From the sequence record OR844650: a stretch of 64,000 nucleotides of DNA. One strand, 5' to 3'. The position numbers and the translations under genes were made by a program. The DNA is from Escherichia phage ECO103 4-12-1. The notes under the pieces were generated by a model. It had not been told where the DNA came from, ran no database searches, and worked only from the letters and a program-made list of their open reading frames with translations. Positions 49,147 to 59,166 of the stretch are shown piece after piece (the stretch's first letter is position 1; each line of letters starts with the position of its first letter).

Positions 49147-49194
49147 ATATCATAAATAAATCAAATGAATGAACGAATTATATGGAGTCCAAAA

Positions 49195-58100: not shown

Positions 58101-59166
58101 TAGCTTAACTGAAGCAGAAATAGTTGACAATGACCTATCTGATGGTGATAAGGTGATGATTTTCACTCCTGATGGTGAAGATTTTGTGAGATATCAAAAT
58201 CACACATGGGAAACAATCTTGCGTGTATCTAACATCAAAAACAATACAACTCCGATCCTATTCACTGTAAGAAATACAGGTAAGGAAACGATTGAATTGA
58301 TTGATGAGAGTACTGGTGCAGTTCTCCGTTATGATAACATCACTCTTGCACAACAAAATGAGCCAGTACAGCCTCTAGCATTGAACATTGTTCGTGTTAG
58401 AACATTTGCTGACCCTGAATTTGTCAAGAATGGTATTAAATTGTATGAACAAAATAGAAATTACACCATTGATGTAATTAATTATGATGTTTTCTACGAT
58501 ACTACTTTAAATGGTGGTAAGTACAATGACGGAATAACACCAGATGACGTTGACGTTTGGATAATCTCCAATGAAATATTTGATGTTGATGGAATTACTA
58601 TCGATAACGGTTATAACTTACCAATTACGGGTGCGGGAGTTCTTAGTGAATTGGCAAGAACTAAAATGACTGATAGTTTAGAAATCAACGTTATCGAATA
58701 TGATTCAAGTGTTATTCAACCGTTTAGAAATAATGAAGGGATATGGGTTTATGGATTCCCAATGGTTGACGGTATGTATATCGGTGTTGTTGGTGGTACT
58801 GTTACTAACATCACAACCATTAGTGAAGAAAATACAACCTATGTTTCTCAACCTAAATCAATAAGTCCTTATAGTATTAGAAATAATGTTTTATCCGGTT
58901 CAGCCGCGAACATGAATGATATTATATCGATTGGATATGAAAAAGTTGAAGTTAGAAATGCAAATAATTTACTCCGTGGTGTAATGTATAGTGCAGAACA
59001 TGATTTTAAACTTAATACCACATATTCTTTCAATGGAATTAATTTAGGTAATTATGATATGTTAAAACGTTACACACAAAATAGTTACACTATAGATCTT
59101 TCAGTATACACTGATAGTCTACAAGTTAGTGGTAATGATATTAAAAATATATTATTAGTTAAGTAA
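49195..59166 (+). CDS. giant virion protein (about 3,320 aa), candidate baseplate wedge / fibre (gp7-like by position)
   Basis: single uninterrupted 10 kb frame; likely start ATG 49195 with GGAG SD (track start 49165); Asn/Tyr/Thr/Asp-rich. Confidence 0.6.
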   Translation: MTNNFKFQPTQMAEAVQKKLFIKRLPEWMQGLEDIQKVSDDVIQQWFNPAENELVDGYIGDMGSPAAAGNIFLHESTVARQLYQLSTAYVSKNDDSTIRSIQFYDDLVGYMNHYGALTDNESRLFNGKFYAWTPAINPNKMNNFSSYLWDTKNSYNITSPDYIVMERGALNGNTWSLQNFWYTLGETLEDGSILTEELMQDSRFIRARAPIIEYNKNIELINYGTKFRGTVDLFSDIIKPEDIVQKDINSGIRIDGIIPQDGMRILFTSIGNNGENNRIYNVYVKKMQDGTRVYGLALDPEEETESRPSGEPQDGDVVLITKGNEYGNSSMYWNGSLWVRAQSKTSVNVFPKFQLYDRNGIKLDNSTTYPSSNFKGSELFGFKINYNYATDSVYGYNIELGDYNYYIYENFLQSQRYTYDHLGKEVEIDGLYYYNIIDENNEMNLQTDWVRSEEYSKQFVKQTPQVQRTDMYRVFSTVYDMEVFKEPVDGMYAYVIEVDRTYQYYKADRETYLDWHPITGDGVQIVKYDHTFELAQKVLDNDSDIIEVVVDGVDVSKYTKNVSKGQVQSITLDSTVELDEDSVIQIRTYSSTVTPNKELGAYEVPINLQNNPYNSNIIYINQGDYTLHFQDIIQKNITRGSSDDFNDYEERLAKGLVNNGVGTKIIQNEASMLPLMAHTANEDIDLFEATMFMQSEYFRFINKFNTQMLRMYDENPSDFLQNSAANIVDAILTTINMGRDSSFPFYYDNVGSTSGFIRAFIPPTPQFLGILQAYVPEKATFLTAGSKPSCYNISHTGIISKAYRVINGVDKMDDVVYELENRIFNSIDNKFKDVDYVPVLNSDDLFPTPYFTKTEYSAEEKQTLLLRGYINFTATNGISNSTHDYDPNNWRTWNYTGTYYVVNGQSTEIPARGSWRAIYTDQYGTYRPATHPWEMFGFTQRPTWWNQEYEPTAVQVGERDSDVVYVYEALVMNEQGDLVPSGLWDIDGTIGDSSTGTILFGDRRGQYDKYKRFGVQPFKITKTGNKTSSGIDICVVEYIAPEILGLVSGSLNHRAEPWTYGDMGDMEFTYMNTTLFAYDQMMLLYKAKPAQFANYFWDTRNDNLKEVFTDGSQFLYGDTRKRINFDKNTVVHGENSTRTIGYQMFVSDHLMYQNKNITTKYGDVVRSSYINVGHKIGGFTKADQLTFNAKSFGLISQENQTIGLVRSNNIRDEQMSAIKITWNGSAYQIDGYDLVGAKFKYKLPVKNGRKVTLKLENRNVVHYNEWKSEASIEYGKVFNSYQEVYTFICGYGEYLKEHGWIFEDVNDSGAQQDWNTIAKDFVIWSQNSLVTGEFISCTPSAANAKFGADFGSVQSITQNNGGVWSLLDDNNQGIRQYEIETSRIGNIFTVRTLESNKRIALIRLSLCSYEHAVIFDDKTIFGDYIYQPTYGSIQELIKMYGYITGSWTGRLQAPGFIILEAGTLPSFEKLVSDFQHYYDSETPVSDVQLQELSNHLIGYQSRDYLQRMISSDVSRVDFYKGFIHDKGTNQVLERVLRVSKSYDTDEYKALQEWAFKIGTYGNIDGKKNLQFKLINDQFKQQPQMVSFDVNATSNGNGNHIVYFGEQGKDPRWITRPNGKFSFPMRSGRSENIQLPDIGPVTLDEVSYTTKDFSTAYNDRITYTNGKGENPESVWMFKDGNGLWNIFELVDTNVQMVSITPIENTDVYAEQFCKVTLTDNVPLEDGDYYYFVDETNFMPDTLTVESQYYTAGSDPKVMVVPFDTSIDIEFTDPDTRPRLYRYVSRFASTDDRQAYIDKKYSFKAPQSTLFDRPTTYDERTNITELYLNVYDPINGVIPGAAMQNVTYTSPVDPAQYNSNGELIQAWGADKVGQVWWNTSTAFYLDYTRAIYDADGNVDIDATNEYKRYNWGRLLPHSTIDVLEWVCSPVEPYNWDKYCKDVAKKNKNNTMYLPSGTALEDNYSTFLEYDSSTDSYVTKYYFWVRDTIYVPPLHTRTKSCTDIARIIKDPTQLNIPWFAPINENSFILSNMQFKVNDDTSILTVSYYMDSTEVVKHDQYQLCKEGDSYNFNPLIWDSMWNSLIGQETTESGSVINLLYPDVDNGLGSNKTWFQNVIEARRNFVESANNYYRSQNITTNSVVMEDVFNVKTTEVNPNEVSFRVLSYNNELVIAVESDKFKENDAVILSTSGYLPNPLTSSAVYFIHFDENGYIQLMNSPANAGSVVTITLENKGEGQHKMIKQSDYVESLGTSLDMTQYWSYADWYDVGYDSNTTYTQESSLEDANTKNYQVGDIIRVTDSENIWTLYIKSQSRDSIYWKAIGRENSTVELNDMLYADYSVHNDNGSLSNREINVRKALALLKNSFDLHQSEIVFDMVKYVHVEQSVVDWVFKTSYIYIVGLEQSLVQNYSNDNLINQIVEYFEEVKPYRTKIRSQIEQKTSDDDLIKGLCNDLDPNGYIFVDGSWIKTEKDIWDYEYAQFNEITQKWEQVGSLPSDFVTPNRRFQEIDIIMHYDNIQCKPNEDLASINELVSVNNKYQSNEKDAVSNYELQRYIYSFPEYSEETFDLLIAYQMQIYYPELDVTLGTAYGVNQWYKDHAEDLEATDEFTATLERVYKESTHNDMFTDLRQYVQYNTLANRLKLYKDISDEKIHDEVGCGFSGLTYNDNPSTRLPLGFSSSNDYNYGYFEISSELYQKYISLIKDKNPDASDYEVKVKLEVEYGVYVYRYDEVGGDTRFYTDAIHVLAGMRGLFDKDATDKYEKAEEILSKTPIDIYAITMIPRKYVYLNVNGVYQSIPDEQSIDDFMEDYFITNGEMVELAEINLDDLPLDQNNPMYSDYQYILDSITEAKYFNDMNAFDNLALESQTSSIKWEVKDDEVDPYIVDISDINPSGRDVGQIRFTVDGYGFDNVSLVQLRDNSRYQTEGMAIINPYKHTEAIVSIPSYAKIENDINKTTSKFDEKYFYRVRSINSLTEAEIVDNDLSDGDKVMIFTPDGEDFVRYQNHTWETILRVSNIKNNTTPILFTVRNTGKETIELIDESTGAVLRYDNITLAQQNEPVQPLALNIVRVRTFADPEFVKNGIKLYEQNRNYTIDVINYDVFYDTTLNGGKYNDGITPDDVDVWIISNEIFDVDGITIDNGYNLPITGAGVLSELARTKMTDSLEINVIEYDSSVIQPFRNNEGIWVYGFPMVDGMYIGVVGGTVTNITTISEENTTYVSQPKSISPYSIRNNVLSGSAANMNDIISIGYEKVEVRNANNLLRGVMYSAEHDFKLNTTYSFNGINLGNYDMLKRYTQNSYTIDLSVYTDSLQVSGNDIKNILLVK

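What the first reader, a model, noticed from the sequence alone, without database searches (positions are those of the whole stretch)
49165..59166. Giant 10 kb ORF (about 3,320 aa) in the baseplate operon
Seen: one uninterrupted reading frame of about 10 kb directly after the gp25-like and 1153-aa (gp6-like position) genes, bracketed by hairpin terminators. Established: in contractile-tail phages the genes after gp25 and gp6 encode wedge proteins (gp7) and fibres, normally about 1,000 aa. Inference: a wedge or fibre protein expanded roughly three-fold, possibly a fusion of several receptor-binding or enzymatic domains, which would bear on host range.
Basis: partly seen in the sequence, partly recalled or inferred. 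Interest (0 to 1): 0.6.

Follow-up and report, generated by a model that had tools for sequence, protein, structure and literature searches.

The report
Giant baseplate-operon protein of jumbo phage
The 10-kb gene is real and is the already-catalogued 382-kDa virion protein gp538 of jumbo coliphage PBECO4; it sits where the baseplate wedge protein gp7 normally lies, but it resembles no known protein or solved structure, so its role as an outer-baseplate scaffold is inferred, not shown.

Summary
An uninterrupted ORF runs 49165-59166 (+), 3333 codons, bracketed by two terminator hairpins. The true start is probably ATG 49195, giving 3323 aa and 381.9 kDa.

The window is Escherichia phage PBECO4 (100% identity). 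The gene is gp538, annotated 'virion structural protein'. It is intact in over 30 independent phage genomes, under strong purifying selection (dN/dS 0.059), and was detected by mass spectrometry in virions of phAPEC6 and CBB. The object is therefore already known, but no function has been published.

It belongs to a very large family: 994 clusters, and nearly all of the 150 best listed are 2,200-6,300 aa. The family shares a core of about 2,450 aa. The C-terminal 880 aa evolve faster and are specific to the Rak2-like clade.

The gene order gp25, gp6-like wedge, giant, often followed by fibre genes, holds down to about 25% identity.

Best reading (inferred, about 0.5): one copy per wedge in the gp7 slot, building the outer baseplate and the docking platform for fibres. 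It is not a recently expanded gp7 and not a typical host-range determinant.

The parts
49195..59166 (+). Giant gene (PBECO4 gp538) from its probable true start: 3323 aa, 381.9 kDa, pI 4.6
   Evidence: ORF and translation. 100% identity to NC_027364 320750-330751, 'virion structural protein'. Start codon argument. dN/dS 0.059.
49165..49194 (+). Ten extra codons included in the RefSeq/ORF-list start; probably not translated
   Evidence: There is no Shine-Dalgarno sequence before ATG 49165, which lies 7 nt after the promoter-like box. Homologue calls and the PHROG model begin at residue 11.
49122..49141 (+). Terminator-like hairpin plus T-run between the gp6-like gene and the giant gene
   Evidence: 8 pairs, 5 GC, tail TTTTTTAT
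49151..49158 (+). CATAAATA box, resembling a T4-type late promoter, 37 nt upstream of ATG 49195
   Evidence: Six of the seven TATAAATA boxes in the window lie in intergenic DNA, most of them 20-45 nt upstream of a start codon on the same strand (one search read). A late sigma factor gene lies at about 37662-38501. Function as a promoter is inferred.
49184..49187 (+). GGAG ribosome-binding site for ATG 49195
   Evidence: The equivalent site is annotated as an RBS in UE-S1.
49237..49335 (+). Residues 25-57: two conserved helices predicted with low confidence; candidate partner-dependent anchor to the wedge (inferred)
   Evidence: AF2 pLDDT is below 60 here, against a mean of 85 for residues 1-1200. 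L35, P36, Q40, E43 and P59 are invariant or nearly so.
49195..56514 (+). Family-wide conserved core (about residues 11-2450)
   Evidence: Coverage by distant relatives, invariant columns, tblastn to the PA5oct, Atu_ph07 and SCTP-2 groups. AF2 of residues 1-1200 gives pLDDT 85.3 and pTM 0.78.
56284..56553 (+). Residues about 2374-2463: the most conserved block of the C-terminal half (VDWVFKTSYI...EVKPYRTKIR), helical but with pLDDT about 30; probably an inter-subunit interface (inferred)
   Evidence: identity 64-87% in the window 2401-2500, the highest of any 100-residue window.
56515..59163 (+). C-terminal 883 aa found only in the Rak2-like clade; faster evolving, with several confident beta-rich and helical domains and no recognisable fold
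59170..59196 (.). Hairpin with an A-tract on one side and a T-tract on the other; apparently a bidirectional terminator shared by the giant gene and the convergent ClpB-like gene
   Evidence: 12 pairs
45654..49115 (+). gp6-like wedge protein (1153 aa), the presumed partner
   Evidence: phrog_10646 and phrog_219 'baseplate wedge subunit'. In-register weak match to the T4 gp6 N-terminus. Homologues carry DUF8360. MS evidence: phAPEC6 gp244.
45157..45552 (+). gp25-like sheath initiator / wedge protein
   Evidence: Pfam GPW_gp25, E = 1.2e-8.
41953..44616 (+). gp5-like hub/spike with a C-terminal lysozyme
   Evidence: Phage_base_V, DUF2345 and Phage_lysozyme.
39364..39678 (+). gp53-like small wedge protein at the head of the module
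   Evidence: phrog_7145 and phrog_232 'baseplate wedge subunit'; RefSeq annotation.

Best explanation
The gene encodes a 382-kDa late structural protein of the tail baseplate.

Shown:
- It is a single, selectively constrained gene.
- Its product is in virions of close relatives.
- It has what looks like its own late promoter and terminator.
- In most relatives examined it lies directly after the gp25-like and gp6-like wedge genes, and often before fibre genes.

Inferred:
- One copy per wedge (six per virion, about 2.3 MDa) takes the place that gp7/gpI holds in other contractile tails.
- Its conserved N-terminal segment (residues about 11-160) docks onto the gp6-like dimer and gp25. The first two helices appear to fold only with a partner.
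- The remaining conserved core of about 2,300 residues consists of many small beta-rich and helical domains. It forms the bulk of the outer baseplate and provides the attachment platform for the multiple, branched fibres typical of Rak2-like phages.
- The clade-specific C-terminal 880 residues form the outermost, faster-evolving layer.

On this reading the protein does by itself what T4 does with gp7 plus gp8-gp11, but with unrelated folds.
For: - A real gene under purifying selection throughout.
- Virion MS: phAPEC6 gp245, 381.88 kDa, 17 peptides; CBB_236, 21 peptides.
- The module order gp53-like, 749 aa, gp5-like, lysozyme, gp25, gp6-like, giant mirrors T4's 53-5-...-6-7.
- The same gp25, DUF8360 wedge, giant order occurs in loci at 25-28% identity, with overlapping stop and start codons, followed by Gp34_trimer/Peptidase_S74 or Collar fibre genes.
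- PA5oct's 'largest protein' gp128 lies beside the wedge gene gp129.
- A late-promoter-like box lies upstream.
- AF2 of residues 1-1200 is confident (pLDDT 85, pTM 0.78) and globular with mixed alpha/beta content, so it is neither fibrous nor tape-measure-like. Only the conserved first 66 residues are uncertain.
- The best weak fold matches are fibre/tailspike N-terminal anchor modules, gp6-type wedge proteins and phiKZ outer-baseplate gp27.
- Distant members insert CBM_5_12, FG-GAP and Laminin_G modules at variable points, which suggests a surface-exposed periphery.
- Six copies would give 2.3 MDa, which fits the 35-36 nm baseplate described for RaK2 and CBB.
Against: - MS shows the protein is in the virion, not where in the virion.
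- Copy number is unknown.
- One distant locus (L007) has the gene away from the baseplate genes.
- The 749-aa unassigned protein in the same module could in principle hold the gp7 role instead.
Confidence: 0.5

Rival explanations
1. It is a tail fibre or receptor-binding protein: a long, probably trimeric adhesin whose distal part decides host range.
For: It lies next to fibre genes in relatives. The weak best fold hits include fibre and tailspike N-terminal modules and pilins. Distant relatives carry CBM_5_12, Laminin_G and FG-GAP modules. The C-terminal third evolves about twice as fast as the core.
Against: The models show no coiled coil, beta-helix or collar-type repeat, and there are no internal repeats. 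Pfam finds no fibre or tailspike family. The C-terminus is colinear across phages of seven host genera, with dN/dS 0.096, rather than being swapped. The phages already encode separate fibre and depolymerase proteins.
Confidence: 0.12
2. It is an internal or ejected virion protein (an inner-body or pilot protein, in the manner of the 3,500-aa virion RNA polymerase of phage N4), encoded by chance next to the baseplate genes.
For: MS places it only 'in the virion'. It is of similar giant size. PHROGs files it under 'head and packaging'. A ClpB-like unfoldase gene is adjacent.
Against: The PHROG category is the generic bin for 'virion structural protein'. Linkage to gp25 and gp6 is conserved, often with translational coupling, down to about 25% identity. 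No polymerase or enzyme family was found. The fold matches are tail and adhesin beta-domains. Relatives insert carbohydrate-binding modules, which makes sense only on the outside of the particle.
Confidence: 0.08
3. It builds another tail appendage, such as the 'hairy' whiskers on the sheath or the collar decorations seen in phAPEC6, 121Q and CBB.
For: These phages have unusual unassigned appendages.
Against: The family is equally present in RaK2, PA5oct, Atu_ph07 and many metagenomic phages for which the papers consulted here mention no such whiskers. The models are globular and multi-domain, not a 120-nm filament.
Confidence: 0.07
4. It is the tail tape-measure protein.
For: It is a very long protein in the tail region of the genome.
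Against: It is beta-rich and globular rather than an extended helix. At about 1.5 Å per residue, 3323 residues would specify a tail of about 500 nm, whereas the measured tails are about 110-130 nm (the per-residue figure is established knowledge). The gene lies after gp25 and gp6, not before the hub.
Confidence: 0.02
5. It is an artefact: several ordinary genes joined by sequencing errors.
For: Three Salmonella phage records split the region into 3-4 ORFs.
Against: The frame is intact in 33 records and in roughly a hundred full-length (2,780 aa or more) metagenome clusters. dN/dS is 0.059 in this one frame. MS peptides come from a product of about 382 kDa. The split records are 99.4-99.6% identical, so they are the likely ones with errors.
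Confidence: 0.01

Closest known systems
The same gene in catalogued relatives: PBECO4 gp538, 121Q gp582, phAPEC6 gp245, CBB_236, the RaK2 and GAP32 homologues, PA5oct gp128 (PHROG phrog_10938)
   Same: Identical or homologous over the full length, with the same neighbours. Detected by MS in phAPEC6 and CBB virions.
   Different: Nothing differs; this is the family it belongs to. No member has an assigned function or a structure.
T4 gp7 (baseplate wedge initiator, 1032 aa; Pfam PF21428/PF21456/PF21427) and the minimal gp7-like proteins P2 gpI, Mu gp48 and TssG
   Same: The gene position directly after the gp25-like and gp6-like genes. Late expression. A large multi-domain protein. A short N-terminal helical segment that could join a helical bundle with the two gp6-like chains (inference).
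   Different: No sequence, profile or fold similarity. It is three times longer. The conserved core is 2,450 aa rather than about 180 aa.
Outer-baseplate scaffolds of other jumbo phages, e.g. phiKZ gp27 (898 aa), gp139 and gp130 (PMC13250141)
   Different: phiKZ uses many separate proteins of moderate size. Here a single 382-kDa chain would do the job. Similarity is below significance.
N-terminal anchor / T4 gp10-like modules of branched tailspike complexes (CBA120 TSP4 residues 1-250; T7 gp17 N-terminus)
   Different: Not significant by sequence profile (probability 0.4%). It is one domain of about 90 residues out of 3,323.

Membership tests
Rak2-like giant virion structural protein (phrog_10938) | Full-length match to the family profile | tested here: met
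   Residues 11-3330 match profile positions 1-3324 of 3324, E = 0, 5794 bits. 100% DNA identity to PBECO4 gp538.
Rak2-like giant virion structural protein (phrog_10938) | Presence in purified virions | not testable with these tools
   Taken from the literature for relatives at 99.9% DNA identity (phAPEC6) and 58% protein identity (CBB): phAPEC6 gp245 and CBB_236.
T4 gp7 baseplate wedge initiator | Pfam gp7 domains PF21428, PF21456, PF21427 | tested here: not met
   All 120 listed gp7 relatives carry them. The giant protein has no Pfam hit, either whole at E<=0.01 or in seven pieces at E<=1.
T4 gp7 baseplate wedge initiator | Profile-profile homology to the gp7 family | tested here: not met
   hhalign of A2 against A7: probability 0.15%. 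Against T4 gp7 alone: 0.4%.
T4 gp7 baseplate wedge initiator | Fold similarity to gp7 in solved baseplates | tested here: not met
T4 gp7 baseplate wedge initiator | Gene immediately after the gp25-like and gp6-like wedge genes | tested here: met
   In the window, in three of four distant loci (but not 94), and in PA5oct.
T4 gp7 baseplate wedge initiator | Forms the (gp6)2-gp7 heterotrimer (core helical bundle) | not testable with these tools
   Only a monomer could be predicted. The conserved N-terminal helices (residues 25-57) have low pLDDT, which is compatible with partner-dependent folding but proves nothing.
Minimal gp7-like proteins (P2 gpI, Pfam Tail_P2_I) | Match to the Pfam model | tested here: not met
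   No Pfam hit for residues 1-200, or for any other piece, at E<=1.
Tail fibre / tailspike receptor-binding proteins | Fibre or tailspike domains (coiled coil, beta-helix, collar, Peptidase_S74, depolymerase) | tested here: not met
   No Pfam or PHROG family. No such secondary-structure pattern in the models. No significant fold hit.
Tail fibre / tailspike receptor-binding proteins | Mosaic, host-linked replacement or diversifying selection of the distal part | tested here: not met
   The C-terminal third is colinear across host genera. dN/dS is 0.096.
T4 gp10-like / TSP4-type fibre-anchor module | Fold and sequence match to the module | tested here: inconclusive
Tape-measure protein | Almost entirely alpha-helical, with length proportional to the tail | tested here: not met
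   Mixed alpha/beta globular domains. 3323 residues would far exceed the length needed for a tail of about 110-130 nm.

The most novel reading that the evidence does not exclude
This would be a previously undescribed architectural solution for contractile-tail baseplates. A single polypeptide of 3,000-6,000 residues, with folds unrelated to any solved baseplate protein, would replace both gp7 and the whole set of peripheral wedge proteins (T4 gp8-gp11 or the phiKZ star-lobe proteins). It would serve as the fibre-docking platform in a very large clade of jumbo phages, represented by nearly 1,000 sequence clusters and including phages with genomes of 300-500 kb.
Probability: 0.3. Interest if true: 0.6.

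Novelty: already known. Interest (0 to 1): 0.33.

Why it matters
The gene is catalogued, detected in virions by mass spectrometry, and even used as a genome anchor ('largest ORF') in the CBB paper. Its existence is therefore not news.

What remains open is its role. It is probably the largest single contributor of mass to the baseplate of Rak2-like jumbo phages, several of which are being developed against E. coli, Klebsiella, Salmonella and plant pathogens. It is the one conserved member of the wedge module with no detectable relative among solved structures.

If it is the gp7-slot scaffold that carries the branched fibres, it would show that the outer baseplate can be built from one giant chain. 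It would also be a natural chassis for engineering fibre sets. A high-resolution baseplate map would settle this. The confident AF2 model of residues 1-1200 shows that fitting domains into such a map is feasible.

Tried and rejected
- Self-BLAST for internal repeats: none found, so this is not a repeat expansion.
- Pfam, NCBIfam and PHROGs, on the whole protein and on seven pieces at E<=1: only its own PHROG matched.
- PDB sequence search with the single sequence and with a 21-sequence profile: nothing except one spurious ribosomal protein at E = 0.18.
- hhalign against T4 gp7, a 17-sequence gp7 family alignment, and the CBA120 TSP4 N-terminus: probabilities of 0.4% or less.
- The first attempts to build deep MSAs for AF2 failed on size limits. 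The final MSAs had 23 rows.
- A Pfam scan of a whole alignment failed on its size limit.
- The RaK2 paper text was searched for the homologue's gp number, without result.
- Recent Asteriusvirus papers (Sharanji, fEgEco12), the phiKp24 structural paper and the Atu_ph07 paper give no function for this gene.
- Tape-measure, artefact and whisker readings were considered and rejected for the reasons given under the rival explanations.
- The 749-aa neighbour was checked as an alternative gp7 candidate. It has no PDB or Pfam relatives either, so it cannot be excluded.
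Full report
**Observation.** The window holds an uninterrupted reading frame at 49165-59166 on the + strand, 3333 codons. At 32.7% GC the chance of such a stop-free run is about 1e-113. The other two + frames of the same stretch contain 162 and 606 stops.
- It follows a gp25-like gene (45157-45552; Pfam GPW_gp25) and a 1153-aa wedge gene (45654-49115; PHROG 'baseplate wedge subunit', with a weak in-register match to the T4 gp6 N-terminus).
- Terminator-like hairpins with T-runs lie at 49122-49141 and 59170-59196.

**Identity.** The 10 kb is 100% identical to Escherichia phage PBECO4 (NC_027364 320750-330751), a 348-kb Asteriusvirus. 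There it is gp538, annotated 'virion structural protein'.
- Thirty-three phage records carry at least 80% of the gene. Sixteen records match at 99% identity or more.
- Three Salmonella phage records split it into 3-4 ORFs at 99.4-99.6% identity. Those are the likely sequencing errors, not this one.
- Against phage UE-S1 (89% DNA identity) dN/dS is 0.059 overall, and 0.023-0.10 in every 300-codon window. The whole 10 kb is therefore one constrained gene.

**Virion evidence from the literature.**
- phAPEC6 (99.9% identical) lists gp245, 'hypothetical protein', 381.88 kDa, 17 unique peptides, directly after gp244 'baseplate wedge' (PMC7247149).
- CBB lists CBB_236 with 21 peptides next to CBB_237 'baseplate wedge', and uses 'the largest ORF' to align Rak2-like genomes (PMC5259590).
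- PA5oct's largest protein gp128 lies beside the wedge gene gp129 (PMC7318152).
- None of the papers read assigns it a function.

**Start codon and transcription.** ATG 49195 is the likely start.
- GGAG at 49184-49187 lies 7 nt upstream of it. Nothing comparable precedes ATG 49165.
- CATAAATA at 49151-49158 resembles the T4-type late promoter. Six of the window's seven TATAAATA boxes lie in intergenic DNA, most of them 20-45 nt upstream of a start codon on the same strand. A late sigma factor gene is nearby.
- UE-S1's annotation, the metagenome gene call P0001 and the PHROG model all start at residue 11.
- The mass computed from 49195 (381.86 kDa) matches the published 381.88 kDa.

**Family.** A search of 5.8 billion proteins gave 198 relatives. 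The top 120 are 2,780-5,638 aa and reach down to 24% identity, on contigs up to 512 kb.
- The exhaustive HMMER search with residues 1-1200 found 994 cluster representatives (586 with E<1e-30). Nearly all of the 150 best listed are 2,200-6,281 aa.
- Among cultured phages the family covers the Rak2-like genera, XaC1, the PA5oct group, Atu_ph07, Salicola SCTP-2, CM1 and XacN1.
- Residues about 11-2450 are conserved throughout the family. Residues 2451-3333 align only within the Rak2-like clade.
- Insertions cluster at a few points: after residues 159-163, 762, 1276, 1600-1800 and 2105-2165.
- Some distant members carry CBM_5_12, FG-GAP or Laminin_G_3 modules.
- There are no internal repeats.
- Giant size is therefore ancestral to the family. 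It is not a recent three-fold expansion or a fusion.

**Synteny.** The module reads gp53-like, 749 aa, gp5-like hub-lysozyme, lysozyme, gp25, gp6-like, giant. This mirrors T4's 53-5-...-6-7.
- In three of four distant loci the order gp25, DUF8360 wedge (about 1,130-1,160 aa), giant is kept, with overlapping stop and start codons (TAATG, or an 8-nt overlap).
- In those loci it is followed by fibre-type genes: Gp34_trimer/Peptidase_S74, or Collar.
- One locus is rearranged.

**Tests of what it is.**
- *Sequence.* No Pfam, NCBIfam or foreign PHROG family matches, whole or in pieces. There is no PDB relative, even with a profile.
- *gp7 membership.* T4 gp7 relatives all carry PF21428, PF21456 and PF21427, which are absent here. 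hhalign of the two family profiles gives probability 0.15%.
- *N-terminal structure.* AF2 of residues 1-1200 is confident (pLDDT 85.3, pTM 0.78) and shows many small beta-rich and helical domains. Only the conserved residues 1-66, which hold two helices, are uncertain.
- *C-terminal structure.* AF2 of residues 2134-3333 is moderate (pLDDT 67, pTM 0.37). It has several confident domains. The family-invariant helical block at about 2374-2463 has pLDDT about 30.
- *Foldseek on both models.* No hit at E of 0.001 or less.
- *TSP4-like module.* It is not supported by sequence profile.
- No enzyme, lectin, fibre or tape-measure signature was found.

**C-terminal third and host range.** It is 36-58% identical where the core is 63-87% identical (relative P0004), and dN/dS is 0.096 against 0.046 for the core. 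It stays colinear across phages of at least seven host genera. This pattern fits a peripheral structural layer, not a swapped receptor-binding tip.

**Interpretation.**
- *Shown:* a real, late, virion-associated gene tightly linked to the wedge genes.
- *Inferred (about 0.5):* one copy per wedge occupies the gp7 slot. It is anchored through its N-terminal segment to the gp6-like dimer and gp25. The conserved core of about 2,450 aa builds the outer baseplate and fibre-docking platform. The C-terminal 880 aa form the outermost layer.
- Six copies would contribute about 2.3 MDa, against about 1.6 MDa for twelve gp6-like chains. That is compatible with the 35-36 nm baseplates reported for RaK2 and CBB.
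- It works like a gp7 plus peripheral wedge proteins, but it is not a member of the gp7 family by any test run here.
- Rivals are a fibre or adhesin, an internal or ejected protein, sheath whiskers, a tape measure and an artefact. Each is less likely, for the reasons given with it.

**Limits.**
- Fold searches were run on 1,200-residue blocks, which lowers sensitivity for single domains.
- The location within the virion and the copy number are not known.

**Verdict.** Interest is modest (0.33). The residual novelty is that a very large family of giant baseplate-module proteins has no recognisable relative among solved structures and no published function.

Noticed in passing
window 49165-49197: The RefSeq start (ATG 49165) is probably 10 codons too far upstream. 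GGAG at 49184-49187 and the CATAAATA box at 49151-49158 favour ATG 49195. The published mass of 381.88 kDa matches the shorter product.
   Followed up: yes
window 59203-61512 (- strand): A two-ring ClpB/Hsp104-like AAA+ ATPase (AAA, AAA_lid_9, AAA_2, ClpB_D2-small, Clp_N) converges on the giant gene and shares the hairpin at 59170-59196. It is also adjacent in UE-S1, but not in distant loci. Whether it helps fold or assemble the giant protein is unknown.
   Followed up: partly
window 2647, 13919, 23865, 25074, 31035, 38590, 44629 (TATAAATA); 26979, 30979, 49151 (CATAAATA): T4-type late-promoter boxes. Nearly all are intergenic, and most lie 20-45 nt upstream of a structural-gene start on the matching strand. 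The raw count is not above chance; the placement is what stands out.
   Followed up: partly
phage records OR699183.1, OR699181.1, OR699182.1: Salmonella phages SD-1_S14, SD-2_S15 and SD-6_S16 have this gene split into 3-4 'hypothetical proteins' at 99.4-99.6% identity. These are probably frameshift errors in those assemblies.
   Followed up: no
window 41953-44616 and 44653-45141: The gp5-like hub protein carries its lysozyme domain at the extreme C-terminus (residues 765-882), after Phage_base_V and DUF2345. A second, separate 162-aa lysozyme follows it. So there are two lysozyme domains in the hub region.
   Followed up: no
window 56284-56553 (residues about 2374-2463): This is the most conserved block of the C-terminal half (VDWVFKTSYI...EVKPYRTKIR). 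It is predicted helical with pLDDT about 30, in contrast to the confident domains on either side. It may be an inter-subunit interface.
   Followed up: partly
L004 1310-1708 and 2192-2362; L003 1-199: A metagenomic jumbo-phage contig encodes a Ribosomal_L12-domain protein and a weak ArfA-like protein just upstream of its baseplate module. Another contig has an intein/LAGLIDADG-bearing gene.
   Followed up: no
L003 10001-10008; L004 10001; L008 8001: In distant relatives the gp6-like (DUF8360) gene and the giant gene overlap (TAATG, or 8 nt), which suggests translational coupling. PBECO4 instead has a hairpin and a promoter-like box between them.
   Followed up: partly
P0074 1276-1306; P0093 about 2743-2791 and 3789-3817; P0094: Distant family members carry inserted CBM_5_12, FG-GAP_2 and Laminin_G_3 modules at different positions. 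One PA5oct-group record names the protein 'chitin-binding type-3 domain-containing protein'.
   Followed up: partly
window 39690-41939: A 749-aa virion structural protein lies between the gp53-like and gp5-like genes. It has no Pfam, PDB-sequence or foreign PHROG relative. It could be the gp27-type hub partner, or an alternative wedge component.
   Followed up: partly
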